From a virus, in IMG/VR virus record IMGVR_UViG_3300030098_006570, positions 64,001 to 128,000 of that record: a DNA stretch of 64,000 nucleotides; one strand, given 5' to 3'. The translations under genes were made by a program, and so were the position numbers. The notes below the pieces were generated by a model. That model searched no databases. It saw nothing but the letters and a program-made list of their open reading frames with translations, and had not been told where the DNA came from. How positions within the stretch are numbered: position 1 is the stretch's first letter; each line of letters begins with the position of its first letter. Below, piece by piece: positions 3,039-63,553 of this stretch.

Positions 3039-5978
3039 TTATTCTTCCACCTTTAGAGGCTTCATCGGAGCCACCTTATTAATTATCTCTTTATTGGAAA
3101 TTCTGGTGGCGGATATGAGGGGAGTTGTGATTTGCCAAGTTGGGACATTTGCAATGGGATTGTCCACATTGACACTAACATCTTTCTCACTACGATGAAT
3201 TAACTGTTGTATCGCTTCATAAAAAGTTCGATAAGGAATATAATTTCGATCCGTAGAGGCCATCGAGGCGTTACCTACCAAGAACAGATTGTCATAATCC
3301 GACAAACCTAAGAGGTTCCCCCCGGAGGTTACATTCGTGGTCTCCTGTAGTCGACACAATAAGAGTGTATTATTCTGACGAGCAAGAGCATAAAGTTCCT
3401 CCGTCAGCAAAGTCCATCTAGGCTGGTCAATCATGACCGTTCCATTGCCAGATGTCTGATACCCGTTGAAATACTCGACTCTCTTGATAGAGTTGAGGTT
3501 AATTCCCGTGGTTGCCAAATTATGACTAGGCACCAATTGAGGATCTACTTGGGCTTTTTTTGCGGCTAAAGAGGTGGCAACCCCCTCTAGATTGACAGCT
3601 TTGACATCTTGTCTAAAGCCCGCTATAGCGCTATTGAGCAGAACCGCCACTAGACCCGAAGATCGAATTCGTATAAAAGCGTTATTTTTCTCAGGGGACG
3701 CGTAGTGTAAGATGTTCTGCTCCGAGCCCGATATATTAGCCTGTGTTGTAGCCCCATCCCGAACAAAAACAGATCCTGAGGAGAGATATGTCGAAGAATC
3801 GACAGCACGCAAATTTGCGGCTTCGGCGCTTGTGGCCGTAGGAAGTCTTCGTACAGTTTTGATGTCCTGCGCAAGAGGAGTCACTGAAATACCAGAAGCG
3901 CCCAGAATCGAATCAATGTCCCCAACCGGGGGCGAATCTGCACCCACGGTGGTATGAAAAGATAGCTGAGATGTCGTAGGCCGAATCTTGGTGGCCAGCA
4001 AGTCTACCGTATTCTGGAGTCCCACATCAAACATTGATGTATCGATAACGTTCGTCGGGGTATTTATCCTCTTAGGTGTAAGATAGCCAGCCTTATTGAC
4101 TTGAGCAGCGTTAGGGCCCTCGACCTTAAATTTACTAATTTCGGCCCCTAGGCGTCCCTGAAATTGTGTATGAGGAATTCTGCTAAGGCCCCGGGTTTCC
4201 GTAACCAAATTCTCGTCTAAGTAGTCAAATCCGGTCTGGGCATCATGGGTGTTTTCATACGTGTTGGGAAAGACCCGCTGGTACTGAACTCTGCGCGCTG
4301 AGGACGTTGATGTGCTCATTTTAGATCTCACGCTAAATTTAGCGCTGCTCTTGCCCAAGGTAGGCGCCATGACGACCTGGTTAAGAGCGGAGTAAAAGGA
4401 GCGCACGAGCGCGCCAACTTCACGAATATTGGAAATGCTCCCGTTACTAGGATTTGACAACGAGAGAAGGTTTTTGCGCCAGGTAGCCATCGAGTGACTC
4501 CCAAACGCTGCGCGTCCGAAAACAAAAACCACACATGCTAAATAAGTATCCAACAAGCCTTTCCAGGCAGCATCCTGCCGAAGAACCAGCCCTTGCGCTC
4601 GAAGGCGGCGGTTAACCTCTCTAGTATCGGAGCCATGTTGGGCGTTCTCCATTCTGCTCACCCACTTATCATAATCTGTTAATGCTTTCTTGAGCTGACG
4701 AAGGAGATAATGTAACGCGCCCACGCTATTGTCAACACCCGTAATTTCTAGAGTATACTCATAAGTTCCACCGTCTTTAGAGGCTATCTCTACGTCTGTG
4801 GCGACATAGTTGGTAACCCCGGCGGCCTGATTTGCGAAGTCCACACCAACTATGGTTCCGTCCTTCTGAGATGCGACCAACTTTGGAGCGCTCTGTGCCT
4901 TTACTCCACAGATATTCAACTTACCTGGAGTGAGAGCAGTCGCAGAGATATTGGGTCGGATTCTCGTGCGATAAAGCCTAATATCCTCAACCTCAAAACA
5001 ACTGTTGAGAGCCTCCTTGTTGGCAACCAAAAAATTGAGCCGAGTGTTCGCCTGAACAAATTGTTTGTAGTTGATCGCGAACATAGCTTTCAGAACGTTT
5101 GTGCGAGTCCGAGAAAAATAAATATCAGATACCCCGGTGCTCGTCTTTCCAACCACGTTCCGAATGACTTGCGCATCCTTAGTCATGCGCCGATTAAGTG
5201 TCAGTGTAACCTCACTCAACCGCGAGATAAGTTTCCCCTGCTCAGACATAAAAGACTTATCTTGCATCTTTTGATTTGAAACTACAGAAGAAACCAAATA
5301 TGGATGCTTGTCGGCAACATGAGTGGGGCCGGCCATGACGCGGCCGTTGTGACGATGAATGGGCCCTGACCAAATGTCGCCCTTCTTGCCATACCCTTCC
5401 ACTGACTCGCCAAGACGATAAACCATCCCCATAGTGGACACTCTATTTTCTATATAGATGGTCTCAACTGCTGGATATCCTATCTTTATCGCTCGAATCT
5501 TAGTGCTCACACCCGACTGTGTAACATCCTGAGGGTTTACTTTATAGGCAACAGCATAAACATAAAGATTAGGCCACTCGTCGCGGCGTAAATCTGGCAG
5601 CGTTACGCGGACTCGGCGCTGTGAGATGGCGGTAGCTGTGGCTTTCTCCACTACGACCTGTTCATTAAACTGTTTTGTAGTCTTGCTTAGGTCCCCAGGC
5701 AGGTACATTTTGCGAGATTCTTTTGTCTGCATCCCATCGTCAGCTATGCAGTGCTTGACGACAGATTCTTGTTGCATCAGGCCTGCAATCGCTGAATCAT
5801 CATCACTGAATACTAACATGACTCGGTAGGGAGACACAAGACTCCAGGATGTAGGTACCTGATATAGCAACTCTATCTCAACTTTATTGATACCCATTTC
5901 AGGCATCGCACGAAAATTGATCTGGTCGATCACCACATTGGGCAATGAGTCGCGGTATAGGCCGGGGGCAGCGTCCAT
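3039..5978 (-). CDS. Hypothetical virion structural protein (979 aa)
   Basis: Long ORF translationally coupled to both neighbours. Confidence 0.65.
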   Translation of the reverse strand: MDAAPGLYRDSLPNVVIDQINFRAMPEMGINKVEIELLYQVPTSWSLVSPYRVMLVFSDDDSAIAGLMQQESVVKHCIADDGMQTKESRKMYLPGDLSKTTKQFNEQVVVEKATATAISQRRVRVTLPDLRRDEWPNLYVYAVAYKVNPQDVTQSGVSTKIRAIKIGYPAVETIYIENRVSTMGMVYRLGESVEGYGKKGDIWSGPIHRHNGRVMAGPTHVADKHPYLVSSVVSNQKMQDKSFMSEQGKLISRLSEVTLTLNRRMTKDAQVIRNVVGKTSTGVSDIYFSRTRTNVLKAMFAINYKQFVQANTRLNFLVANKEALNSCFEVEDIRLYRTRIRPNISATALTPGKLNICGVKAQSAPKLVASQKDGTIVGVDFANQAAGVTNYVATDVEIASKDGGTYEYTLEITGVDNSVGALHYLLRQLKKALTDYDKWVSRMENAQHGSDTREVNRRLRAQGLVLRQDAAWKGLLDTYLACVVFVFGRAAFGSHSMATWRKNLLSLSNPSNGSISNIREVGALVRSFYSALNQVVMAPTLGKSSAKFSVRSKMSTSTSSARRVQYQRVFPNTYENTHDAQTGFDYLDENLVTETRGLSRIPHTQFQGRLGAEISKFKVEGPNAAQVNKAGYLTPKRINTPTNVIDTSMFDVGLQNTVDLLATKIRPTTSQLSFHTTVGADSPPVGDIDSILGASGISVTPLAQDIKTVRRLPTATSAEAANLRAVDSSTYLSSGSVFVRDGATTQANISGSEQNILHYASPEKNNAFIRIRSSGLVAVLLNSAIAGFRQDVKAVNLEGVATSLAAKKAQVDPQLVPSHNLATTGINLNSIKRVEYFNGYQTSGNGTVMIDQPRWTLLTEELYALARQNNTLLLCRLQETTNVTSGGNLLGLSDYDNLFLVGNASMASTDRNYIPYRTFYEAIQQLIHRSEKDVSVNVDNPIANVPTWQITTPLISATRISNKEIINKVAPMKPLKVEE

Positions 5979-6958
5979 TAGCAGGGCTCCTCTTCAATGG
6001 TTGTGTAGAGATCGCGCACAATATTGAGTCGATTAGCATTTCGTAGGACCGCATCACGCGTAAGTCCCACACTATCTAGGATGTCGCTCGGAATTATATC
6101 ATCATGTGTAAGCCTCATATAATATTCCACATTTGGAACTTCTCCACTTTCCAGCGAAGATGGGCTTTGAATAATATTGGGGTTATCGTTGAGAAAATTA
6201 AGTTGAGTCAAAAGATTATCCGGATGAATATAGTACACCTCTACGTCATAATTTTCCATTTGAAATGGTGTGTTCTTCTCTAAGACATCTAAAATCAAGA
6301 AATTTTTTACCAAAGCCAAAGTTGCCGGGGCCTCTCCGGTGGAACCCGTGGGGAACGGAAGACTGATAGATTGCGGATCCTCCTCGGGCGCGAAATACGT
6401 TTGATAATCCAACTCAATCTCTAACTGGGGGATATCCATAATGACACCACTTGTGCTCCCGGTAATATAACTGGCTGTCAAATTAGTCACCATATATCCC
6501 CGAGATCCTGTGCTCTGAATTGTGGTCTCGTTACGATTCATAACATTGACTGACCAAGCGGCATCATATTGTGAAGTCAAAGCGGACGTTCCTAAGGGAA
6601 AGGAAGCCAGATTGTTAACAGACTGAAAAGGTTGTTGCATATTGAAGTCATCAACTTTATTAGCGGGGTCGGAGGACTGATCCCAGGTCGAAGAAGTTAC
6701 GTTACTCAGAAACTCATCTACTCGGGTTTGTGCGCCGGAACGATTAGCTATCACCTTTAGGTTGGGAGTTTCAAAGCGAATACGCTGATCGATACTATTT
6801 TGGCTAGCACCACCATCAGCATAAAAATCGTTATAGAGAATTTCCTCATCAAAGAAACCGTAGTAAGCTGGATCGAGGGCGCCCTGAGACAGTAAGTATT
6901 TACCATACTCGGTCAGCTGCAGTTCAATTACTTCTTCCTTTTTATTGAAAAATTCCAT
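5978..6958 (-). CDS. Hypothetical virion/baseplate-region protein (326 aa)
   Basis: N-terminus MEFFNKKEEVIELQLTEYGKYLLSQG...YYGFFDEEILY; operon context. Confidence 0.6.
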   Translation of the reverse strand: MEFFNKKEEVIELQLTEYGKYLLSQGALDPAYYGFFDEEILYNDFYADGGASQNSIDQRIRFETPNLKVIANRSGAQTRVDEFLSNVTSSTWDQSSDPANKVDDFNMQQPFQSVNNLASFPLGTSALTSQYDAAWSVNVMNRNETTIQSTGSRGYMVTNLTASYITGSTSGVIMDIPQLEIELDYQTYFAPEEDPQSISLPFPTGSTGEAPATLALVKNFLILDVLEKNTPFQMENYDVEVYYIHPDNLLTQLNFLNDNPNIIQSPSSLESGEVPNVEYYMRLTHDDIIPSDILDSVGLTRDAVLRNANRLNIVRDLYTTIEEEPC

Positions 6959-52762: not shown

Positions 52763-54628
52763 TTATCCCACCGATATACCTAATAAATAGTCCATTATTT
52801 CGTTTACAAACTGGTCTTCCACAGATTCATTGTTCGAAGTTTTTTTCTTTTTGCGCTTCTCAGATCCAATCACATCGGGGAAAGTAGTGGCAAACCCTGT
52901 CACCGCGCCTCCCGACTGCGCGCTCATTTCATCAAGCTGTTCGCCAAGTATCCTCATTATATCAGCTACATCGCTATCATTTAACTCTGTAGGTAACCCG
53001 CGGATAAAGCCAACATCATCGTCATCACGAAGAGCTTTCCTCATCATGGTGGCACTTACTCCTCCCATCTGCGGAGGAATTGGGACTTGCTGTACATTTA
53101 CTCCTTCACGACGACCTTCGGCCGTCTTGAAGCGCCCACCTTCGACATCTTTTTCTCCCAAGATAAGGTGCAAGTCTTCCCCGACGTCGGCTTCGTTGTC
53201 AATGTATTCATAGACAGAACGCACAGGCGTCACATCTGCAACTCTAACATCTACATCACCAGGCAAGTGTTGGCGGTAAACGTTCCAAATATTGACGGCT
53301 TGTTGAGGAGTAATTCCTTCATGAACTTTTGGAGAGACAAATATAATGATCTTATCCACTCCGGGGTTACTTAGCACCGATTTAGCAACATTGAAGTGGC
53401 CGCCATGAGGTGGCTTAAACTTTCCAGGGTAAAGAGCAATGTTACGCACCCCCTCGACGGGTACCCTCTCTTCTTCAGCTAGGCCCTGCTTGGAACGATC
53501 TCCATGGGTAGAGGCCAGCCCTTGAACAATAAAATCTCCTGTAAGTTTGACTAGGAAATCTTCCATCCCTCGTAAAACAACACCTTCATGGGATCCAACT
53601 GGACCAGCCATACTGCGCAAAGCTTCTTTTACCGCTTGCCCTAGGAGTCGAGTGCCATGATAAAAAATACCTCCATTGATGGCGTCTTTGACGTCTTCTT
53701 TGGAGGCAAGATATTCACTTAAAGGTATTCCATTTTTCTCGGCGCTGCGTAATACTGCCATATAAATATCTTTACTTAGTGCTCCCACGGATTTCCCATC
53801 AGCCCGGGTAACACGAGTATCTTGGGGGTGCTCTACCATCTGGAGCCATTCTCGTAATGTGTTTGTGGCCACCCCGCCAGGAGTAACCTGAACGGACACT
53901 GGCGTCTCTAAAACTTCTTCTAGATTCAGATCATAATCCGGATCAAACTCCACTGGTACATCACCATATACTTCAAAACCATATTTGGCTGCAATGGGGC
54001 GCACTTTTTCAATAAGTCGTGCTAGGGCTGCGTGATCATAAGGAATTTCGATTCCACCACCTTTGACGGGCTTTCTCGTCTTGGGGTCTATAGGGCGCTC
54101 AAGCCCTGGGCGATCCATGGAAATCCCTTTTCGAATCATATGGGGCTGGGCTTTTTTTTCATAGAACTGGTTGATGCCATGAATAGCCAAAATATTGGAA
54201 TCATATTCCTGGACGTTAGACTTCCCTTCAATATATTCGGTATTGAAATATTTTGTAGGGTCATCCCACATTTTGAGCGCTTTAAGTTCCGGAGTGATGG
54301 CTGGAATAGCCGCATTGAAAATAGTTAACAACTTAGCTATAGCATTAGCCATGCCATGATCGGATCCCCACTTTGCTAAAGCACTTTCAGCATCAAAGCC
54401 CTCAATTGAGGCAATATGAGAGGTTCCGCGATCCATGCGAAACTCTTTTTGACCATCCTCGTTGGTAATCAGCTTAAAACTGGTATTGATGCCATCCCAC
54501 TTGACGCTGCCGGCAATTTCATTGTTTTGAAGACGCACAACAGCGTCCTGGATATAATCAATGAGGTCTTGCCCTGTTTTTACGCGGTCGACATCAAAAG
54601 GGTGCGCCATATGGCCCGGTGTGCCCAT
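52763..54628 (-). CDS. Ligase-like nucleotidyltransferase domain fused to a HIGH-family cytidyltransferase-like domain
   Basis: SVKWDG, NTEY, HEGVVLR, VKLTG; then YPGKFKPPHGGH...GVSATMMR. Confidence 0.65.
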   Translation of the reverse strand: MGTPGHMAHPFDVDRVKTGQDLIDYIQDAVVRLQNNEIAGSVKWDGINTSFKLITNEDGQKEFRMDRGTSHIASIEGFDAESALAKWGSDHGMANAIAKLLTIFNAAIPAITPELKALKMWDDPTKYFNTEYIEGKSNVQEYDSNILAIHGINQFYEKKAQPHMIRKGISMDRPGLERPIDPKTRKPVKGGGIEIPYDHAALARLIEKVRPIAAKYGFEVYGDVPVEFDPDYDLNLEEVLETPVSVQVTPGGVATNTLREWLQMVEHPQDTRVTRADGKSVGALSKDIYMAVLRSAEKNGIPLSEYLASKEDVKDAINGGIFYHGTRLLGQAVKEALRSMAGPVGSHEGVVLRGMEDFLVKLTGDFIVQGLASTHGDRSKQGLAEEERVPVEGVRNIALYPGKFKPPHGGHFNVAKSVLSNPGVDKIIIFVSPKVHEGITPQQAVNIWNVYRQHLPGDVDVRVADVTPVRSVYEYIDNEADVGEDLHLILGEKDVEGGRFKTAEGRREGVNVQQVPIPPQMGGVSATMMRKALRDDDDVGFIRGLPTELNDSDVADIMRILGEQLDEMSAQSGGAVTGFATTFPDVIGSEKRKKKKTSNNESVEDQFVNEIMDYLLGISVG

Positions 54629-56373: not shown

Positions 56374-56691
56374 CTAAATAGTGCTGAATAGTAGAAAGAG
56401 TACACCCCAGAGGTGATACACAAAAAGCGCCATGTAGACAAGGTTTAGTGCTAGTAATATTTTGAAAATACTATTAGTAAACCTTTTTCGAAAACAATAA
56501 AGAATCCATATCCCTACAGCACTGAGTCCGAGCTTGGCGATGACAAATAATAAAGGGGATACCTCCAAAAAGAAGGCCATGATAGGATTTGCTTCGTGCC
56601 CTAAGTCATTAGCAATCCAAAAAATAGTAGCGGTGAGATCAATGAGGATAAAGATTGCCAGAATATAGACTAGTCGGACAATCTTCCTCAC
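56374..56691 (-). CDS. DUF5658-like membrane protein
   Basis: DLTAT...GHEANPIM; three TM helices. Confidence 0.7.
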   Translation of the reverse strand: MRKIVRLVYILAIFILIDLTATIFWIANDLGHEANPIMAFFLEVSPLLFVIAKLGLSAVGIWILYCFRKRFTNSIFKILLALNLVYMALFVYHLWGVLFLLFSTI

Positions 56692-56712: not shown

Positions 56713-56925
56713 CTATCCGCAGCACTCACAGTCTTCGCAGCAAGCGCACTTACAAAGCGTTGCGCCTACACATTTAGCTTGAAGCCACTCTGGCTGCTGC
56801 CAAAAGGGGATAAGCATATGCACCAGCATAGCCAGTCCCGAAAGAAGCAACAAGCCCGATAGCCGCGCTGACTGCTTCAAATGGCCTAACCAGCCATGTT
56901 CTTTAAGATGTGCCCAATCCCACAT
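56713..56925 (-). CDS. Small membrane protein, Cys-rich tail
   Basis: HLKE...HL...VHMLIPF; CKCACCEDCECC. Confidence 0.55.
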   Translation of the reverse strand: MWDWAHLKEHGWLGHLKQSARLSGLLLLSGLAMLVHMLIPFWQQPEWLQAKCVGATLCKCACCEDCECCG

Positions 56926-57257
56926 TATCTTCCCTCCGGATTTTGTTTGTCATAAATAATAGCCTTGAAGGCTGTTTCAACGTAATCAGCTGCTTTGGTA
57001 AGCTTTGCTTGTACCCAAGGCTCAAGATTCTCATCATCCTGTAACATATCGTGCAGCTGTTGTGCTTGTTGTGCTAAATGAAAAAGATCTCTCCGCGCCA
57101 TAGCGCCCTCATACCCATCGGGGTCTTTTTCGACTTTTGGTGGAGTGCGATCTTGTGCATTCATCACAGGGGTTTCTAGTAAAATAGAAGAGCCCTTGCG
57201 GATTTCTTCTGAAATAAGGTTTTTGAGAGTTTGTCGGTTAAGCTTCGGGGAAGTCAT
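56925..57257 (-). CDS. Conserved myophage helical-domain protein
   Basis: EGAMARRDL...LEPWVQAKLTKAADYV after the leader LKNLISEE...LLE. Confidence 0.65.
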   Translation of the reverse strand: MTSPKLNRQTLKNLISEEIRKGSSILLETPVMNAQDRTPPKVEKDPDGYEGAMARRDLFHLAQQAQQLHDMLQDDENLEPWVQAKLTKAADYVETAFKAIIYDKQNPEGR

Positions 57258-57826
57258 TATCTATCTCCTGTGGCGTCGCCCAATACAAAGGCTTGAAATG
57301 CTTGTTTGTCTTTATCGTTCATTCGGGAATAGAGTTCAACCGCGCGCTTGACAGAGCCCTCTAGGGCAGAAACTTCCATCTTGGTCTCTTGCATTCCTGC
57401 AGCCCCGTCGCCACCACCCCAGGCGCCCGAACTATAACCAGCATAACTGGTAGAGCCCGCGTACTTCTGTTGACTTTTCGGAGGCGCGACCACGCGCTGG
57501 TCCGGCATTGGATGGGCCCCGGCCATCTCAATGTCATTGAGGGCCTTCCTGAGCGCTGTGGTGGCTCTAAATGCGTTTTCGTAGGCGCCGTCATAAGTGG
57601 GATCATCGAGAGCCACAATAAGGCGTTCTGTAGCCTCTCGGGCCTCTAAAGCTATCTCATATAACTCATTGGCTTTGGGATCGCCCATATTTTGCTCTTT
57701 GTCAGAGTTGGACTGTGACCCCATACGATGCGGTACACCTTCAGGGGCGGAAGGCTCATTAATACCCCCGCCAGTAAACATGGCTTCCTTCACCATGGTT
57801 TTAAGCTGGGCGTAATCAATACTCAC
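57257..57826 (-). CDS. Hypothetical protein
   Basis: Leader-like QLKTMVKE; coupled ORF. Confidence 0.65.
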   Translation of the reverse strand: MSIDYAQLKTMVKEAMFTGGGINEPSAPEGVPHRMGSQSNSDKEQNMGDPKANELYEIALEAREATERLIVALDDPTYDGAYENAFRATTALRKALNDIEMAGAHPMPDQRVVAPPKSQQKYAGSTSYAGYSSGAWGGGDGAAGMQETKMEVSALEGSVKRAVELYSRMNDKDKQAFQAFVLGDATGDR

Positions 57827-57829
57827 GAG

Positions 57830-58177
57830 TTAGTCCTTCTTCCGCTTGCGCGCCATCTTCCGGAAAGTCTTGGCCAGGTTATAACGTTTGGTTCCAGGGC
57901 GACATGTCGGACCGCCAAATTTCTCGCCGGTGCATACCCCTTCGGTGCCGCGGCGCTCAATATCTGCTTCGGCATCCTGAATCCAGTCATCGTCTTTTTC
58001 TTCGGCAAGGCCCGACTCAAGGGGTCGCTCATAGCCCTCTTCCCCCTTTTTTTCTTCGCGCAGAATTTCATCTAAAAGAGACGCCGGATCGAGGTCAAAC
58101 ACTTCGATTGCTTCAGCATTAGTAAGCACCACCTCTACTTCTTCTCTAATAATATTCAGTAACTCTGTTTTTGTCAT
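57830..58177 (-). CDS. Hypothetical protein with acidic leader and basic C-terminal module
   Basis: MTKTELLNIIREE; GGAGG SD; upstream ACTATTTA. Confidence 0.7.
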   Translation of the reverse strand: MTKTELLNIIREEVEVVLTNAEAIEVFDLDPASLLDEILREEKKGEEGYERPLESGLAEEKDDDWIQDAEADIERRGTEGVCTGEKFGGPTCRPGTKRYNLAKTFRKMARKRKKD

Positions 58178-58200
58178 AGCACGAACCTCCGGCGTATAAT

Positions 58201-58208
58201 TAAATAGT
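58201..58208 (-). promoter_or_regulatory. ACTATTTA candidate late-promoter motif (representative copy)
   Basis: Same octamer upstream of starts at 49827-49834, 52784-52791, 56375-56382 and 62143-62150; variants at 475-482, 20156-20163 and 59537-59544. Confidence 0.6.
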
Positions 58209-58251
58209 TTCTTCTTCTTCCTTTGACATTAGAGCTTTAGATTTTTTGACC

Positions 58252-58965
58252 TTAGGTGTTGATCAGGTTGCCATAAATTTTGGGATTTTCAATGGGGTGA
58301 GTCCCGGCATAGAAGAGAGCAAAACCAGCGATCAAATTGCTATTACCAGCGATATCGACTGCCGTACCAAACGTATAGTTGGTAGTGGAACTTCCCCAGC
58401 CGTCATCTGAATACTTAATCGTCACTACGTTTGAATCGACTGCCACGCGGAAGGACCGGCCGGCCGTCCAGTTAGGTCCACCCCCGCTGGTGCCGTTCAC
58501 CAGCGTACCACTTTCAAAAGCCGCAGCGGATGTTCCGGCCCAGCAATAGACGGCCCATTGCATCCACGCATAGGCATTCGTAGATGTGACAGGCGGGGTG
58601 TCTTTGTAGCCGAGTCCAAACATGAATTGAACGTTGTTACCGTTGTAGTTGAAGGATGGAGTCATTTCTACATAAGCCGAGTCACCAGAAGTAATTTCGG
58701 CGACGGTAGTAGCGCCGCAATTCCAGTTTCCTCCGCTTAGGGTTCTAATAATACCTTGATCAAGCCCGGTTTCGGTACCCACTGCGCAGACAGTTCGATT
58801 ATTAAGTTGAGAAGTATCGGTAATGGGCAATTCGAAGGGCGCGGCATCTGAGCATGCACCACCCGAAAGAATGGTGCTAACACGGGATTTATCTATCCCG
58901 ATAATGGTGCTTATCTGATCACATTTGATGCCATCAATTGTTGCTGCTTGCGTCTCGTCACTCAT
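58252..58965 (-). CDS. Hypothetical beta-rich protein, possibly virion-decorating
   Basis: S/T/G/N-rich; AGGAG SD. Confidence 0.6.
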   Translation of the reverse strand: MSDETQAATIDGIKCDQISTIIGIDKSRVSTILSGGACSDAAPFELPITDTSQLNNRTVCAVGTETGLDQGIIRTLSGGNWNCGATTVAEITSGDSAYVEMTPSFNYNGNNVQFMFGLGYKDTPPVTSTNAYAWMQWAVYCWAGTSAAAFESGTLVNGTSGGGPNWTAGRSFRVAVDSNVVTIKYSDDGWGSSTTNYTFGTAVDIAGNSNLIAGFALFYAGTHPIENPKIYGNLINT

Positions 58966-59531
58966 GATTTTTCTCCTGCGCTACGTGGGCCATCCATTTT
59001 TATATATTTCATCAGTCGCGGTGCAACTTCGAAGCCGGCTTCGTGAAGTTTATTGGCCCACCACTTGGCAATAGCCCCTTCTTCAAGCGCCGACGGAACC
59101 AGATTGGCCTTGATGCCGGCTGCTTCTGCCGCCGCCACTTCTTCCTCATCGTCGTCCCAATGCTCGGCAACACCCAAGGACAGAAGAGTCTCAGCTTTAA
59201 GGTCCCCATGTGTGTAGTGGATACTCTCCACAGGAAGCTCTAGTTCGGCTACCAACTCTTCTGGGTCTGGGGCTGTATCCCATGGGTGTTTATCCCCTGT
59301 GCGTTTTGACCGGGATGTAACAATTAGAACCTTGTTGCCGGCCGCTGCAAGTTCTCTTAGCTTTGCGATGTTCTCCTCGTGAGGGCCATCATAAAGAATG
59401 CCAAATTCGGGATCTTCTGGGTCTGGCTTATGTCTGATTAAAGTATCGTCGTAATCAAACGAATAAATGTTTTGTTCCAAGTTATCTTGTTCGGCGATGT
59501 ACTTTCGCCATTCTTTTAAAATTTGTTTCAT
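58962..59531 (-). CDS. HAD-superfamily phosphatase-like protein with shared leader
   Basis: SFDYDDTL (motif I), IVTSR (II), K (III), HWDD (IV). Confidence 0.75.
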   Translation of the reverse strand: MKQILKEWRKYIAEQDNLEQNIYSFDYDDTLIRHKPDPEDPEFGILYDGPHEENIAKLRELAAAGNKVLIVTSRSKRTGDKHPWDTAPDPEELVAELELPVESIHYTHGDLKAETLLSLGVAEHWDDDEEEVAAAEAAGIKANLVPSALEEGAIAKWWANKLHEAGFEVAPRLMKYIKMDGPRSAGEKS

Positions 59532-59561
59532 TATTATAAATATACCTTTTCATTCATTTAC

Positions 59562-59589
59562 AGTATAACAGACTGAAAAAGGAAGTCAA
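59562..59589 (-). promoter_or_regulatory. Sigma70-type promoter (extended -10)
   Basis: TTGACT-16 nt-TATACT, preceded by TGn. Confidence 0.6.
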
Positions 59590-59596
59590 GAGGTTT

Positions 59597-60328
59597 TTAA
59601 TAGTCATCGTCCTCACCGTAATCTGGCGGGAAGATGGAGGAATCAATGATTTTGAAGTTACCTTCACTATCATGTCCAATGTTACCGCTGCCAATCTCAT
59701 ATTTATCGATATTAAACTCGTGCATGGCTTTGCTTAACTCTTGATACGCAGGGCCAGCTACACGGGACAGTAGGACTCCGAGTTCTTGAGCAATCTCGGC
59801 ACTTTTAGACTCGTCATCAGCCGCATCTTTGGTCCGATCATACCGGAAGGATCCCAGAATTGTCTTCAAGATATGAAAAGGGTCGGCAGGATTGATATCT
59901 GCCTCACGACGCCATTGCAATATGGCTTCTTTCTCTGCGGGGAAAGACTTATCAAGAACTTTTTCCAAATCATCCATGCGATCAATTGGCGTAGCTTTGT
60001 CCACTACAACCCACGAGAAGTCATCAGCATGGGCGTACGCACGGGGGAATATAAGAGGATAGCGCTTGGCAGTGTTGAAATCGTCTTCATTCATCTGCAT
60101 CTTATAATCATCGGGCTCGTGAATCATTTTGATAACGTGCTCGGGATCACTAACGGGCTGATACACTGCGCGAAAGGATCCGGCGCCAAGTTTCTTAAAG
60201 CGATCAGATTCTAGGATGGCATGGATCTCATCAAAGTCGTCGGTGGCTTGGATTTCTTTTAGCCAAGGGAAATATTGTGTCTCATTCTCGGTAAGATACT
60301 TCCGCCAGTTTTCAAGTAGGAGTTTCAT
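59597..60328 (-). CDS. Protein-kinase-like fold protein with shared leader
   Basis: LGAGSFRAVY, VIKM, EIGSGNIG, KIIDS. Confidence 0.7.
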   Translation of the reverse strand: MKLLLENWRKYLTENETQYFPWLKEIQATDDFDEIHAILESDRFKKLGAGSFRAVYQPVSDPEHVIKMIHEPDDYKMQMNEDDFNTAKRYPLIFPRAYAHADDFSWVVVDKATPIDRMDDLEKVLDKSFPAEKEAILQWRREADINPADPFHILKTILGSFRYDRTKDAADDESKSAEIAQELGVLLSRVAGPAYQELSKAMHEFNIDKYEIGSGNIGHDSEGNFKIIDSSIFPPDYGEDDDY

Positions 60329-60609
60329 TCTTCGTCCAATTCGGGATGATACCCCAAATACACGCGCCCGATGTCGTCCCCCACCTTTTTACCATCAGCT
60401 TTCAGTTCAGCCGGAACAGCCTTATCCGGTGTCCCATACCAGTAATAAACATCATAGCCGCCGTCCTCCCTCCATTTTACTACAAGTCCACGTTCGTGCT
60501 CTGCAGTGTCCGCTTTCAAGATTATTTCTTTATTTTGTGGAAGTACGAGGTCTGGCTCCCCACCCTCTTCTTTTAGTAACTTCCGCCAGTTTTCAAGGAT
60601 TAGTTTCAT
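60325..60609 (-). CDS. Hypothetical protein with shared leader
   Basis: Likely start MKLILENWRKLLKEE. Confidence 0.7.
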   Translation of the reverse strand: MKLILENWRKLLKEEGGEPDLVLPQNKEIILKADTAEHERGLVVKWREDGGYDVYYWYGTPDKAVPAELKADGKKVGDDIGRVYLGYHPELDEE

Positions 60610-60610
60610 T

Positions 60611-61852
60611 TTACCACTTCTTGCAGGACCAGTAACGCGCTTTTGTCTTTGGACCAGGGTTGTCACAGTTGTGACGAGCACGGAAAGACTTGCGCGCCTT
60701 GGGGTTGCTCTTACGAATTTTCATATTCGGATCACCAAAGTTAACCTTCTTTACATTTCCAGTTTTCGGATCCTTGACATAAACTTTAAATTTTTTGACA
60801 TCTCCACGGGTGGGTTTATTGAGGGTAACCTTACGCCCGCGATACTCAGCCTCGTAAACAAGATCAGGACAACCACAGGCCGCAGTATCAAGCTGTTCTA
60901 TTAAACATGCAACGCACACGGGAGTGCCGTCGTCTAGGTAAGCCTCAGTCAGATGGGGAAATACATCCCGCTCCAAAAGCGCCCGATTAACTTCTTCAGC
61001 AATCAAACCGTATAGCTCATCACTTCTCATGGTAATTCCCTCTTTCTTGGTTTTCTTAGCTTTCTTGCCCCAAGATTTACCTTTACCTCGCTCTTTACAT
61101 GCGCCCGGGGTTGGACGACATGCCGGGTACTTCTTGCGCTTTTCACCAGAACCTCGGCCGCATGACTTGTAGCCGCCTTTACCGTCTGGGGCATTGCAGT
61201 CAACCCAACCTTTCTTAGAACCCTTCGCGCCCTTACGACCAAACCAATCTCGAAGTGATGACTCTTTGCTGGACTCAGTTCCAGCTTTCTTCTTTTTCTC
61301 GTCAAGGGTTTTTTTGACATCGATCTCTTCGCCATCTTGGAGAATATAATCTCCGTCTTCATGGAGTCCAACGTCGCTCATACCTTTGATAGCATCTTTG
61401 ATTTCTTTTTCTGATGCTTTGGTGTGGTCCTTGAGCGCTTTCATACCTGCAGCGCCACCTTCCTCGATCAATGCTTTGCGAATTTTTGACTCTAGGTTTT
61501 CTTCGCCCTCAAAAAGCTCAATTTGTTCGTTTTTCTTACTCTTATTGCCCCAATTCTTTGCACCTACCTTGCGGCATTTTACAAGGGCCCCTGAGGCATA
61601 CGCTGACGGCCAGACTTTATAACGAGAGCGCACTTTATGATAACAAGCGTCTCTTTTAGCCTTCTTCTTTTTCTTCTTCTTTTTCTTCTTCTCATCAAGG
61701 GCATCTTCTTCGATAACTTCTTCTTCGAGAGGCACACAGTTGGGAACCATCTTGTCGCCCTTCTTTTTCATTCCCACTTTTTTGTAGCCATCCCAACACG
61801 GATCAGCTGCCTCTTCAAGATAGGAATTCCAGTTTTCAAATAAGAGTTTCAT
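60611..61852 (-). CDS. Multi-module basic Cys/Trp-containing protein with shared leader
   Basis: Likely start MKLLFENWNSYLEE. Modules CWDGY..VPNCV, DACYHKV..PSAYASG, LRDWF..GWVDC..YPACRP, AEYRGRKV..ARYWSC. Confidence 0.75.
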   Translation of the reverse strand: MKLLFENWNSYLEEAADPCWDGYKKVGMKKKGDKMVPNCVPLEEEVIEEDALDEKKKKKKKKKKAKRDACYHKVRSRYKVWPSAYASGALVKCRKVGAKNWGNKSKKNEQIELFEGEENLESKIRKALIEEGGAAGMKALKDHTKASEKEIKDAIKGMSDVGLHEDGDYILQDGEEIDVKKTLDEKKKKAGTESSKESSLRDWFGRKGAKGSKKGWVDCNAPDGKGGYKSCGRGSGEKRKKYPACRPTPGACKERGKGKSWGKKAKKTKKEGITMRSDELYGLIAEEVNRALLERDVFPHLTEAYLDDGTPVCVACLIEQLDTAACGCPDLVYEAEYRGRKVTLNKPTRGDVKKFKVYVKDPKTGNVKKVNFGDPNMKIRKSNPKARKSFRARHNCDNPGPKTKARYWSCKKW

Positions 61853-62138: not shown

Positions 62139-62154
62139 TCAGTAAATAGTGATA

Positions 62155-62811
62155 TTATAGCGTCAACAACCACTCAATTGAATAGTTCACCTCTTCTGCA
62201 CTATATCCCCGATCAATATCTCGTAAAATCATGTTACCGTCAATGTAATAAAACGTTGGCCAGCCAGACAGTGCCCAAGTCCCCCCAGCGCTTTCGAGCA
62301 TCGCTCTGCTACCCCCGATTACAAGAGAGCTAGTATTGCCGTATTCTTGCGCCCAGGCTTGGACATCTTTAGCGGTGGGCACATTGCCTTCGGCTGTTTC
62401 AATCAGAACAGTGATATAAAGAAGCCCTGTGTCGCTATATTGATCTTGTACCTCTTGGGCGTGTTGCGCTGCTAGTCGACAGGGACCGCACCACCCGGCT
62501 GAGAAATCCAGTACGATTGGGCGCCCAAAGAGGGCGTATAGACTAAAGGCATCGCCCTTGTGGTCGACGGCCGTAATATTACAAGGGTGTTCTCCCTCTA
62601 CGCACGCGCACGATTTCCAATCAATGGGACTGGTGGGAAGCATATCCCACGGATCCGTTTCGTGAAAATTCTCCAAAGCAACAAAGTCTAGTGTTTCCTG
62701 GTGATCTTCCGGGCCCAAGTCTCTTGGAATCCTATCAAACTCCTCCTTTCCCGAAGGGGGCGTACACGCGAATAAAGACGCGCATAATACTAACAAAACC
62801 GTACGTAACAT
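62155..62811 (-). CDS. Thioredoxin-like (TlpA/redoxin) lipoprotein
   Basis: LFAC lipobox; LDFSAGWCGPC; WPT. Confidence 0.85.
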   Translation of the reverse strand: MLRTVLLVLCASLFACTPPSGKEEFDRIPRDLGPEDHQETLDFVALENFHETDPWDMLPTSPIDWKSCACVEGEHPCNITAVDHKGDAFSLYALFGRPIVLDFSAGWCGPCRLAAQHAQEVQDQYSDTGLLYITVLIETAEGNVPTAKDVQAWAQEYGNTSSLVIGGSRAMLESAGGTWALSGWPTFYYIDGNMILRDIDRGYSAEEVNYSIEWLLTL

Positions 62812-62833
62812 AGCGACATACCTCCTATTGTAA

Positions 62834-63151
62834 CTAGAGGAGATGCTTTTTGTTCGGTATGTTTTTATATTTATCCGCGTCGGGGTGAGGGTCGATGGAA
62901 TAATCTATGGGGGGAGAAATTACAGCTAATCTTTCATTTATTTCTATAAACTCCTCTTGGTCCGCGGGGACTTCAAAATCCCCATATATTGCATCCACAG
63001 GACAAAGAGGCGTACATGCGTCGCAGTTTATACACACTTCCGGGTCGATAACGAGCATATCCGGAGCTTCCCGAAAAGCATAGACAGGGCACGCGTCGAC
63101 GCAATCAGTATACTTACATTTAATACAAGCCTCAGTTACCACATATGTCAT
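62834..63151 (-). CDS. fdxA: 7Fe-type ferredoxin (FdxA family)
   Basis: MTYVVTEACIKCKYTDCVDACPV...CINCDACTPLCPVDAI. Confidence 0.9.
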   Translation of the reverse strand: MTYVVTEACIKCKYTDCVDACPVYAFREAPDMLVIDPEVCINCDACTPLCPVDAIYGDFEVPADQEEFIEINERLAVISPPIDYSIDPHPDADKYKNIPNKKHLL

Positions 63152-63553
63152 TTAGGTAAAGTCCTTAGGATCCCTATATTTTTGTCTTACCTTTTCAGAT
63201 ATCGGGATCGCTTCTCCATCACCGTCGATACGCACGAAGGTCATGGTGGTGCTCGCGACAGCTCGCTGGGTGCCGTTGTACACAGAGTGCCTTCTCGCCT
63301 CCATAGCCAGCGTTAGAGACGTTTTACCGACCTTGGCCACCTCTCCATATATCTTGATGATCTGACCGGGTCTGCAGGGCTTCTCGAAGGTCAATCCAGA
63401 AATATGTTTAGTGACCATTCGCGGAGTATCAGCAACCTGAGCAGCGTATGCAGCTGCGGCTTCGTCTAACCATGCGAGCATGACACCGCCGAAGAGGTTT
63501 CCGTGATATCCCACATCTTGTGTTTTCACAAAGTGGGTAGATATTAATTCCAT
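63152..63553 (-). CDS. Hotdog-fold acyl-CoA thioesterase
   Basis: HGNLFGGVMLAWLDEAA, VGKTSL, MTFVRID. Confidence 0.88.
   Translation of the reverse strand: MELISTHFVKTQDVGYHGNLFGGVMLAWLDEAAAAYAAQVADTPRMVTKHISGLTFEKPCRPGQIIKIYGEVAKVGKTSLTLAMEARRHSVYNGTQRAVASTTMTFVRIDGDGEAIPISEKVRQKYRDPKDFT

What the first reader, a model, noticed from the sequence alone, without database searches (positions are those of the whole stretch)
58962..61852. Four consecutive unrelated proteins share one N-terminal leader: candidate capsid-targeting/cargo system
Seen: MKQILKEWRKYIAE (HAD, 59531), MKLLLENWRKYLTE (kinase-like, 60328), MKLILENWRKLLKE (60609) and MKLLFENWNSYLEE (61852). The similarity extends to DNA (ttccgccagttttcaag...agtttcat at ~60300-60328 and ~60581-60609), while the downstream domains are unrelated. 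Established: T4 internal proteins use a ~10-aa N-terminal capsid-targeting sequence that the prohead protease removes after (I/L)-x-E. Inference: a portable address tag that loads diverse effectors into the head for injection with the DNA.
Basis: partly seen in the sequence, partly recalled or inferred. Interest (0 to 1): 0.85.

Follow-up and report, generated by a model that had tools for sequence, protein, structure and literature searches.

The report
Shared address tag on phage proteins
Four neighbouring, unrelated genes of an uncultured marine T4-like phage start with the same 14-residue peptide, which heads well over a thousand other protein families in this phage group and most likely works as a removable "load me into the capsid" label like phage T4's, though nobody has shown packaging or cutting.

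Summary
Four translationally coupled minus-strand genes (58962-61852) begin with M-K-x-[LI]-[LFM]-E-N-W-R-K-[YF]-[LI]-x-E. Their bodies are unrelated: a HAD phosphatase, a protein-kinase-like fold, a 65-residue mini-domain, and a basic modular protein.

The tag is under peptide-level selection, since synonymous codons vary freely. It sits at residue 1 in nearly all cases. It occurs about 3-10 times per genome in one clade of uncultured marine T4-like phages. It heads at least 1,353 protein clusters in a 1.84-billion-protein library. I found it in no cultured phage tested and in essentially no cellular genome.

All 7 near-complete genomes that carry the tag encode the T4 gp21-type prohead protease. 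The tag ends in that enzyme's [LI]-x-E motif, and the motif is kept even when indels shift its position. Tagged genes recur inside the portal-protease-scaffold module. Other leader classes replace the tag on the same cargo.

Best reading, at about 50%: a new, sequence-distinct capsid-targeting propeptide with a very large, mostly enzymatic cargo set. Cleavage, packaging and injection are all inferred. This scan has flagged analogous leaders on other phage DNA.

The parts
58962..59531 (-). Gene 1, 189 aa: class-1 leader (MKQILKEWRKYIAE), then a HAD-superfamily phosphatase with an intact DxDxT motif
   Evidence: ORF. PHROG 415/1238 and a weak PNK3P match. AF2 model pLDDT 88.8 with helix 2-16, a lower-confidence linker and a confident body from residue 21. 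118 of 120 homologues keep the leader, some with 25-80 residue inserts between leader and HAD domain.
59597..60328 (-). Gene 2, 243 aa: class-1 leader (MKLLLENWRKYLTE), then a protein-kinase-like / aminoglycoside-phosphotransferase-like fold
   Evidence: No Pfam or PHROG hit. AF2 pLDDT 82 with residues 1-15 below 50 and the body confident. Foldseek matches APH(2''), NleH2, GCN2 and Nek7, probability 0.95-1.0. Orthologues keep the leader or a W...FLTE variant of it.
60325..60609 (-). Gene 3, 94 aa: class-1 leader (MKLILENWRKLLKE), then a ~65-residue mini-domain (DLxLP...RGLVVKW..DGGYDVYYWY)
   Evidence: In the family alignment A6 the same domain carries class-1, class-2, class-3 or no N-terminal head.
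60611..61852 (-). Gene 4, 413 aa from the tagged Met: class-1 variant leader (MKLLFENWNSYLEE), then a basic, Lys-rich chain of marine-phage mini-modules
   Evidence: PHROGs 727, 38880, 7595 and others. 76% identity over the WPSAYASGALVKCRK module to S-SCSM1 ORF29, annotated 'virion protein' in a record whose paper identified virion proteins by mass spectrometry (PMC9602691). The modules occur in 391 phage records of many morphotypes. pI 9.6.
59490..59531 (-). Leader 1 (14 codons)
60287..60328 (-). Leader 2 (14 codons)
60568..60609 (-). Leader 3 (14 codons)
61811..61852 (-). Leader 4 (14 codons; W-N-S variant)
59562..59589 (-). Sigma-70-type promoter-like site (TTGACT, 16 nt, TG-n-TATACT) in the 65-nt gap before gene 1
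   Evidence: The same TTGACA/TATACT type precedes early-looking genes elsewhere in the genome.
62142..62149 (-). CTATTTAC, a copy of the clade's candidate late-promoter motif, at the head of the string 94-aa ORF, gene 4, gene 3, gene 2
   Evidence: Read. The motif CTATTTA[GTAC] lies 12-58 nt upstream of the tail sheath, a head-tail-adaptor-like gene, an endonuclease VII-like gene and other structural-region genes in three genomes.
56925..58177 (-). Three adjacent genes with a second leader type (...L-x-x-[IL]-[IL]-x-E-E), directly downstream of the class-1 block
   Evidence: A late-type motif lies before the gene at 57830-58177. This class was noted by other agents of the scan (e1-5836421, e1-5836436).

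Best explanation
The 14-residue N-terminus is a detachable prohead-targeting propeptide, the functional counterpart of phage T4's capsid targeting sequence (CTS).

Inferred mechanism: residues 1-11 form a short amphipathic helix with an invariant Trp and a hydrophobic face (L4/L5, W8, Y/F11). This helix docks the newly made protein onto the scaffolding core while the prohead assembles. Residues 12-14, [LIVM]-x-E, are a site for the phage's gp21-type (Peptidase_S77) prohead protease, which clips the tag off and frees the cargo inside the shell. The cargo then stays in the head with the DNA and enters the next host with it.

Shown here: the tag is real, N-terminal, portable, under peptide-level selection and clade-specific. 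It co-occurs with the protease and is structurally detached from its cargo. Inferred only: docking, cleavage, packaging and delivery.
For: (1) Portability. At least 1,353 clusters at 50% identity carry the tag at E <= 0.001 in 1.84 billion representatives, and 143 of the top 150 start at residue 1. 149 tagged ORFs were found in IMG/VR, often 2-4 side by side. Cargo families include HAD, PNK-like P-loop kinases, GNAT, protein kinase, 2H/CPD, NUDIX, RNase T, C5 methyltransferase and M23.

(2) Peptide-level selection. Arg9 uses all six codons, and the Asn, Lys and Leu codons vary.

(3) Two-part build like T4's CTS, where residues 4 and 7 target and residues 8 and 10 are processed (PMC9026906). 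[LIVM]-x-E sits at positions 12-14 in 100 of 129 tags. In 19 of the other 29 it reappears shifted to positions 11-18, against a background of 1.6% per position.

(4) Protease context. Peptidase_S77 is present in 7 of 7 tag-bearing records that are at least 90% complete. T4's gp23 site FLTE|A (the cut position is from established knowledge) aligns with ELLRE|S in this clade's MCP. The protease itself has a conserved DLLTE near its N-terminus.

(5) Genomic context. Tagged genes lie inside the head-core module: between the protease and the 149-aa scaffold-like core protein in L028, and between the portal-side genes and the protease in L046, L012 and G002:122477. Others lie directly after the MCP gene in L043 and L101, and near it in L011, L098 and L105.

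(6) Timing. The candidate late motif lies directly upstream of tagged genes at G000:7571, G005:11721 and G005:19506, the last heading a 9-gene tag array. It also heads the window's string.

(7) Interchangeability. The gene-3 cargo carries class-1, class-2, class-3 or no head, and every head ends in [IL]-x-E.

(8) Structure. The AF2 models show the tag as a separate helix with low confidence and a linker.

(9) Gene 4 shares modules with an S-SCSM1 protein annotated as a virion protein (PMC9602691).

(10) Restriction to phage. There were 0 hits in T4, S-SCSM1, S-E7, S-SKS1, RM378, Mel-JY01 and Flavobacterium phage immuto, with a working positive control. Only about 4 plausible hits turned up in 596 Gb of prokaryote genomes, all on MAG contigs.
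Against: There is no physical evidence of any kind. No cultured member exists and no virion proteome was available.

The cargo is mostly acidic (median pI 5.0). Much of it is ordinary nucleotide- or RNA-metabolism enzymes (5'-deoxyribonucleotidase, PNK, NUDIX, exonuclease) that T4 does not package, whereas T4's internal proteins are basic.

Gene 1 has its own early-type sigma-70 promoter.

The share of tagged genes inside the head module (about 3%) is no more than that module's share of the genome.

E6-K10-E14 could be a helix-stabilising salt-bridge ladder rather than a cleavage site, although the shifted cases argue against that.

The protease is also present in relatives that lack the tag, so co-occurrence is necessary but not specific.

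The tag has no detectable sequence similarity to T4's CTS beyond the M-K start and the [IL]-x-E end.

Later checks in this scan priced similar capsid-tag readings on other phages low.
Confidence: 0.5

Rival explanations
1. The tag is an uncleaved docking helix for some other shared partner inside the infected cell. Candidates are a replication or nucleotide-metabolism factory, the SSB acidic tail, a membrane site or a chaperone. It would gather accessory enzymes without loading them into the capsid.
For: The cargo is dominated by nucleotide- and RNA-metabolism enzymes and is acidic. Gene 1 has an early-type promoter. The amphipathic helix with a basic W-R-K patch is a generic protein-protein or membrane-binding design. 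The second tag cluster of this genome lies next to the UvsX/RecA and RNR genes.
Against: Core replication and dNTP enzymes of the same genomes (RNR, UvsX, SSB-like) do not carry the tag. The [LIVM]-x-E element is kept when its register relative to the helix changes, which a pure docking helix does not predict. Tagged genes occur inside the head-core module and behind late-type motifs. No conserved partner gene was found: the commonest neighbour, the 401-aa protein, also occurs in a tag-less relative and lies far from the tag array in G005.
Confidence: 0.25
2. The tag is a recognition leader for a shared modifying enzyme, or a timed-degradation signal, analogous to RiPP-like leaders or degrons. 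A similar-looking tag in phage RB43 was tied to a radical-SAM enzyme by another agent of this scan.
For: It is a strictly N-terminal, near-invariant short peptide on unrelated bodies. There is precedent in finding e1-127136.
Against: No enzyme gene is consistently adjacent to tagged genes in 119 loci. Tag arrays contain almost nothing but tagged genes. The only protease consistently encoded is the prohead protease, which folds this reading back into the main one.
Confidence: 0.1
3. The shared start is a by-product of cassette shuffling or translation-initiation optimisation. On this reading a conserved 5' junction lets genes be swapped or well translated, and the peptide itself has no function.
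For: Tagged genes sit in tightly coupled arrays with stop/start overlaps. Leaders 2 and 3 share 28 of 31 bases. Fused double-tag proteins exist. The same genome has a junction-mediated mini-gene chain (e1-5836465).
Against: Synonymous sites vary freely while the peptide is near-invariant. Trp8 is invariant and E6, N7 and R9 are at least 90% conserved in the 97-99-sequence tag alignments. Most of those sequences were picked with a DNA pattern that already required E-N-W-R-K, so the independent evidence comes from elsewhere: positions 12 and 14, which the pattern did not force, and the whole-genome profile hits, which tolerate ENWRR, EQWRK and KEWRK variants but always keep Trp. Orthologues down to 55% identity keep the tag. 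The tag stays at residue 1 when extra domains are inserted after it.
Confidence: 0.1

Closest known systems
Capsid targeting sequence (CTS) of phage T4 internal proteins IPI/IPII/IPIII (MKTYQEFIAE; MKTFKEF...), removed by the gp21 prohead protease
   Same: Both are N-terminal, start M-K and form a short amphipathic stretch with key hydrophobic or aromatic residues. Both end in [IL]-x-E and sit on otherwise unrelated, fast-changing accessory proteins. Both phages have gp20/gp21/gp23-type head genes. T4's CTS is known to load foreign enzymes of any kind (PMC9026906, PMC3012670).
   Different: The tag is 14 rather than 10 residues and has no detectable sequence similarity to T4's CTS; a profile of it finds nothing in T4. 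The repertoire is 3-10 tagged genes per genome and at least 1,353 clusters overall, against three IPs plus Alt in T4. The cargo is mostly acidic enzymes rather than small basic proteins. Several leader classes coexist in one genome. Function is untested.
Propeptides of giant-phage head and ejection proteins cut by T4-like prohead proteases (phiKZ gp175, SPN3US gp245)
   Same: Many head-internal proteins are processed by a gp21-related protease at x-x-E sites and then ejected (PMC5694885, PMC7411985; from their abstracts and my own knowledge).
   Different: As far as I know, those propeptides are long and heterogeneous and are not one conserved portable tag. The cut motif is [S/A/G]-x-E rather than [L/I]-x-E.
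Phage P1 Dar system (N-terminal packaging signal of DarB; DarA/Hdf)
   Same: Large enzymes, including a methyltransferase, are loaded into the head through N-terminal determinants and injected to protect incoming DNA (PMC9024508 and PMC12810830, abstracts only). A tagged C5 methyltransferase occurs here (L101).
   Different: P1 has no shared short consensus tag and a different head type. No homology was tested.
Encapsulin cargo-loading peptides and bacterial-microcompartment encapsulation peptides
   Same: They work alike: a short terminal peptide or amphipathic helix plus a flexible linker addresses diverse enzymes to the lumen of a protein shell. Encapsulin shells are HK97-fold, as capsids are. 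This comparison is from my own knowledge.
   Different: Those tags are not cleaved, the shells are cellular compartments and the sequences are unrelated. This is an analogy, not family membership.

Membership tests
T4-type capsid targeting sequence (CTS) | Located at the extreme N-terminus of proteins whose remaining sequence is unrelated | tested here: met
   143 of the top 150 library hits and all genome hits start at residue 1. The bodies fall in more than 30 Pfam families or have no match.
T4-type capsid targeting sequence (CTS) | Sequence similarity to MKTYQEFIAE / MKTFKEF | tested here: not met
   The T4 sequences were read from NC_000866. The class-1 profile finds nothing in T4 at E <= 1. 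Only the M-K start and the [IL]-x-E end are shared.
T4-type capsid targeting sequence (CTS) | Two-part design: hydrophobic or aromatic targeting residues followed by an [I/L]-x-E processing site | tested here: met
   L4/L5, W8 and Y/F11 are followed by [LIVM]12-x-E14 in 100 of 129 tags. The site shifts independently in 19 of the other 29. The T4 rule is from PMC9026906.
T4-type capsid targeting sequence (CTS) | Genome encodes a gp21-type prohead protease and a T4-type portal and MCP | tested here: met
   PF03420, PF07230 and PF07068 are present in this genome. PF03420 is present in 7 of 7 complete tag-bearing records.
T4-type capsid targeting sequence (CTS) | Tag is removed by the prohead protease after the Glu | not testable with these tools
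   Indirect only: the MCP boundary L-R-E aligns to T4's cut site.
T4-type capsid targeting sequence (CTS) | Tag is necessary and sufficient for incorporation into the prohead core; cargo is present in virions and ejected | not testable with these tools
   No cultured relative carries the tag. Only gene 4's modules match a protein annotated as a virion protein in cyanophage S-SCSM1 (PMC9602691).
Leader recognised by a co-encoded modifying enzyme (RiPP-like) | A specific enzyme gene is consistently adjacent to tagged genes | tested here: not met
   No such neighbour was found in 119 loci. The commonest neighbour is not tag-specific.

The most novel reading that the evidence does not exclude
Uncultured marine T4-like phages use a small set of interchangeable, sequence-readable terminal tags: class 1 (ENWRK), class 2 (...LxxIIxEE), class 3 (MxKLKxILxE) and possibly C-terminal scaffold-like tails. 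With these they pre-load a large and fast-changing arsenal of enzymes into the capsid and inject them with the DNA as time-zero counter-defence and takeover effectors. The enzymes include RNA-repair, nucleotide-hydrolysing, kinase, acetyltransferase, methyltransferase and peptidoglycan-cutting types. If so, the 'injectome' of uncultured phages could be read directly from metagenomes.
Probability: 0.3. Interest if true: 0.85.

Novelty: new variant of a known kind. Interest (0 to 1): 0.62.

Why it matters
If the tag is a capsid address, about 3-10 genes per genome and more than a thousand protein families in ocean viromes become predictable as packaged, injected proteins. That class is known in detail only for T4, P1, N4 and a few giant phages, and it is invisible to ordinary annotation.

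It would also give a handle on marine phage counter-defence, because many of the cargo types are RNA-repair and nucleotide-hydrolysing enzymes. It would provide a new portable packaging tag for engineering T4-like capsids. It would make a direct test possible in existing viral-fraction metaproteomes.

If the tag instead addresses another destination, that would be a phage protein-sorting signal with no described counterpart.

Tried and rejected
1. tblastn of a 25-residue leader against 50,697 GenBank phage records gave nothing real. The query is short, so this is weak by itself. The profile searches with a positive control carry the claim.

2. T4's late promoter TATAAATA has 14 copies, none upstream of a gene, so it was rejected. 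CTATTTA[GTAC] was adopted as a candidate late motif from its positions only. Its overall count (19) is close to chance (about 14); the argument is positional.

3. The idea that the tag mimics the MCP delta-domain helix (ALISKWE...LLEG, T4 LLNKWKPLLEG) is not supported by the tag profile, which did not pick up the MCP. It was dropped to a remark.

4. The 401-aa frequent neighbour as a partner was rejected.

5. Literature search for the motif string returned only unrelated papers.

6. PF07068 and UvsX searches in five half-genome contigs were negative or nearly so. These records are 41-50% fragments and prove nothing either way.

I used the search for related loci instead.

8. PMC150520 (the T4 genome review) is not held. 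My recollection that T4 IP genes are expressed both early and late therefore remains unchecked, and I did not use it as evidence.

9. No multimer folding is available, so tag-scaffold docking was not modelled.


Full report
**What the window is**

The window is bases 64001-128000 of a single 148,084-bp viral record that CheckV rates 82% complete. Nearly all genes lie on the minus strand. The genome has a T4-type head module:
- a large terminase;
- a gp20-type portal (PF07230, 5e-81);
- a gp21-type prohead protease (Peptidase_S77, PF03420, 3.6e-32);
- a gp23-type major capsid protein (PF07068, 8e-71);
- a contractile-tail sheath.

Its nearest cultured relatives by capsid protein are Microcystis phage Mel-JY01, Flavobacterium phage vB_FspM_immuto and Rhodothermus phage RM378, at 35-44% identity. 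It is therefore an uncultured marine member of the distant T4-like phages.

**The observation**

Genes 4, 3 and 2 are joined by stop/start junctions (TAG-a-ATG, TAA-a-ATG, ATGA). These junctions place the true starts at the tagged methionines rather than at the upstream ATG or GTG of the longest ORFs.

A profile of the tag finds these four at E = 8e-11 to 6e-8 in the genome. It finds a fifth copy at genome position 7571 (MSD-MKLIMENWRKF...). A sixth, degenerate copy sits ten residues into ORF 5819-6760. In a six-frame scan of three genomes the scores are bimodal: 9.7-35 bits for true copies, 8.8 or less for noise.

**The bodies are unrelated**

- Gene 1 is a HAD phosphatase. It has weak PHROG and Pfam matches. 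Its AF2 model has pLDDT 88.8.
- Gene 2 has no family match, but its AF2 model (pLDDT 82) matches aminoglycoside phosphotransferases and protein kinases.
- Gene 3 is a 65-residue mini-domain.
- Gene 4 is a basic (pI 9.6) chain of mini-modules common in marine phages.

**How widespread the tag is**

It returned 119 loci and 149 ORFs, about 140 of them convincing, often 2-4 side by side.

A 30-column profile searched against 1.84 billion representative proteins returned 1,353 clusters at E <= 0.001. The match begins at residue 1 in 143 of the 150 best. The exceptions are mis-called starts or fusions of two tagged genes.

The same DNA pattern found only 17 places in 596 Gb of prokaryote genomes. 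About 4 of these look genuine, all on MAG contigs that are probably mis-binned phage.

The profile finds 5-10 matches at E <= 10 in each of eight genomes of the clade. Counting only matches at E <= 1e-5, that is roughly 1-9 per genome. It finds none in T4, cyanophages S-E7, S-SKS1 and S-SCSM1, RM378, Mel-JY01 or Flavobacterium phage immuto. Seventy-eight of the 119 loci share other genes with this genome. The tag is therefore a hallmark of one uncultured clade.

**Selection acts on the peptide, not the DNA**

Among 129 non-redundant tagged genes, Arg9 uses all six codons. The Asn, Lys, Glu and Leu codons vary as well. Positions 12 and 14 were not forced by the search pattern. They are L/I/V/M in 118 and Glu in 106 of the 129.

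**The tag is detachable**

- Both AF2 models show an N-terminal helix (residues 2-16 or 3-13) of low or moderate confidence, joined by a weak linker to a confident body.
- In the HAD family, 118 of 120 homologues keep the tag. Some have 25-80 extra residues between tag and HAD domain, and the tag stays at residue 1.
- In the gene-2 family, most members keep the canonical tag. A subgroup has a divergent head (MSNFISIKWDRFLTEGEA...) that still keeps Trp and F-L-T-E.
- In the gene-3 family, the same cargo domain carries one of four N-terminal arrangements:
  - the class-1 tag;
  - a second head (KLTEEKLKKLIMEE, KITKRELIKLIKEE);
  - a third head (MIKLKxILxE, MADKKIKLxDLLKG...);
  - no head at all.

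Heads are thus exchanged on one cargo, and every head type ends in [IL]-x-E.

**Link to the head protease**

The review PMC9026906 states the T4 rule. The first 10 residues of IPIII suffice for packaging. Residues 4 and 7 govern targeting, and residues 8 and 10 govern processing. PMC3012670 states that T-even internal proteins are a diverse set of defence proteins with only a conserved CTS.

I read the T4 sequences from the T4 record (MKTYQEFIAE, MKTFKEF...). The class-1 tag has the same two-part design but a different sequence.

- The [LIVM]-x-E element behaves as an independent linear motif. In 19 of the 29 tags that lack it at positions 12-14, it reappears at positions 11-18. About 12% would be expected from a background of 1.6% per position.
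- T4's gp23 propeptide boundary FLTE|AEIG aligns with ELLRE|S in the MCPs of this clade. The site of the T4 cut is from established knowledge.
- The protease has a conserved DLLTE near its own N-terminus.
- Peptidase_S77 is encoded by all 7 tag-bearing records that are at least 90% complete, and by most that are at least 66% complete. Negative records are 22-68% fragments.

**Genomic context**

Tagged genes occupy variable slots inside the head-core module. One slot lies between the protease and the 149-aa scaffold-like core protein (L028). Another lies between the portal-side genes and the protease (L046, L012, and G002:122477, an acidic helical 182-aa protein). Others follow the MCP gene directly in L043 and L101 and lie near it in L011, L098 and L105. 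In two genomes the accessory protein after the protease carries the second half of the tag (TWRTFLNEG).

A motif, CTATTTA[GTAC], lies 12-58 nt upstream of the sheath, an adaptor-like gene, an endonuclease VII-like gene and other structural-region genes in three genomes. The same motif lies directly before tagged genes at G000:7571, G005:11721 and G005:19506. The last of these heads an array of nine consecutive tagged genes. In the window the motif stands at 62142-62149, at the head of the string 94-aa ORF, gene 4, gene 3, gene 2.

Gene 1, by contrast, has its own sigma-70-type promoter, of the kind that precedes early-looking genes here.

**What weighs against the capsid reading**

- Nothing physical is known.
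- The cargo is mostly acidic (median pI 5.0).
- Where the cargo can be recognised, it is largely nucleotide- or RNA-metabolism enzymes: 5'-deoxyribonucleotidase, PNK-like kinases, NUDIX, exonuclease, plus methyltransferases, GNAT, protein kinases and M23 peptidase. T4 makes such enzymes early and does not package them.
- The fraction of tagged genes inside the head module is not above that module's share of the genome.
- The protease also occurs in tag-less relatives.
- Another agent of this scan found that a similar-looking tag in RB43 tracks a radical-SAM enzyme rather than the capsid. I therefore looked for a partner gene and found none.
- Capsid-tag readings on other phages were priced low by later checks in this scan.

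**Verdict**

The tag is a portable, N-terminal, clade-specific peptide under selection, joined to more than a thousand cargo families.

The best-supported mechanism is a T4-CTS-like prohead-targeting propeptide cut at [LIVM]-x-E, at about 0.5. An uncleaved docking helix for another partner is at about 0.25. A leader for a modifying enzyme or a degron, and a by-product of shuffling, are at about 0.1 each.

By sequence the tag is not a member of T4's CTS family. It is best filed as a new variant of that kind of system. The scan has noted analogous leaders on other phage DNA (e1-5340821, e1-5756284, e1-5379433) and a second leader class in this same genome (e1-5836421, e1-5836436).

Noticed in passing
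window 56925-58177 (three genes) and window 61030 (internal Met of gene 4, residue 275): A second leader type (...L-x-x-[IL]-[IL]-x-E-E: MTKTELLNIIREE, ...LKNLISEE, MRSDELYGLIAEE) heads the three genes just downstream of the class-1 block. It also starts an internal module of gene 4, which therefore looks like a fusion of two tagged units. Seven of the eight genes in the run 56925-61852 carry one tag or the other; the 237-aa gene at 58252-58965 has none.
   Followed up: partly
alignment A6; loci L171-L192: The gene-3 mini-domain carries class-1, class-2, class-3 or no N-terminal head. The two head-less cluster representatives (P0278, P0279) instead have a ~40-residue C-terminal helical extension ending ...ADLARFL. 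This vaguely recalls the scaffold tail R-M-x-x-L-A-G-[IL] reported in e1-5836422. The domain is also embedded in 965-1,203-residue proteins.
   Followed up: partly
genome-wide; in the window at 62142-62149, 58200-58207, 56374-56381, 52783-52790: CTATTTA[GTAC] lies 12-58 nt upstream of the sheath, adaptor-like, endonuclease VII-like and other structural-region genes in three genomes of the clade. It is a candidate late promoter that differs from T4's TATAAATA, which is not used here.
   Followed up: partly
genome 53965-57117 upstream, 139774-141075 upstream, 142316-143182 upstream; window 59562-59589: Strong sigma-70-type promoters of one form (TTGACA, 16-17 nt, TATACT or TATAAT) precede early-looking genes. 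This suggests the host RNA polymerase recognises classical -35/-10 boxes.
   Followed up: no
window 60611-61852; L007:2203-3756; L008:2496-4085: Gene 4's mini-modules (CWDGY...VPNCV, WPSAYASGALVKCRK, SLRDWF...GWV, C-terminal PHROG 7595) occur in 391 phage records. These span cyanomyoviruses, roseophages, pelagiphages, Methylophilales phages and Nitrosopumilaceae viruses. One carrier, S-SCSM1 ORF29, is annotated as a virion protein.
   Followed up: partly
L168, L156, L164, L170 (genome contigs): Tag-bearing contigs are filed in public MAGs named Pelagibacter TMED166 (116 kb), Woesearchaeota, Isosphaeraceae and Gammaproteobacteria. They are probably phage contigs mis-binned into cellular genomes.
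   Followed up: no
P0296, P0280, P0281, P0284, P0327: Some library proteins carry two copies of the tag, one at residue 1 and one internal that begins with Met. They look like read-through fusions of adjacent tagged genes.
   Followed up: no
window 62155-63553: Upstream of the tag block lie a thioredoxin/AhpC-like protein with a lipoprotein-like N-terminus (62155-62811), what looks by eye like a small 4Fe-4S ferredoxin (62834-63151) and a thioesterase-like gene (63152-63553). I did not run the last two against any family library.
   Followed up: no
genome 44462-45310 and G002:123980-125050, G036:~193812: Variable proteins flanking the prohead protease gene carry partial tag-like strings near their N-termini (RYFLNE; TWRTFLNEG).
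   Followed up: partly
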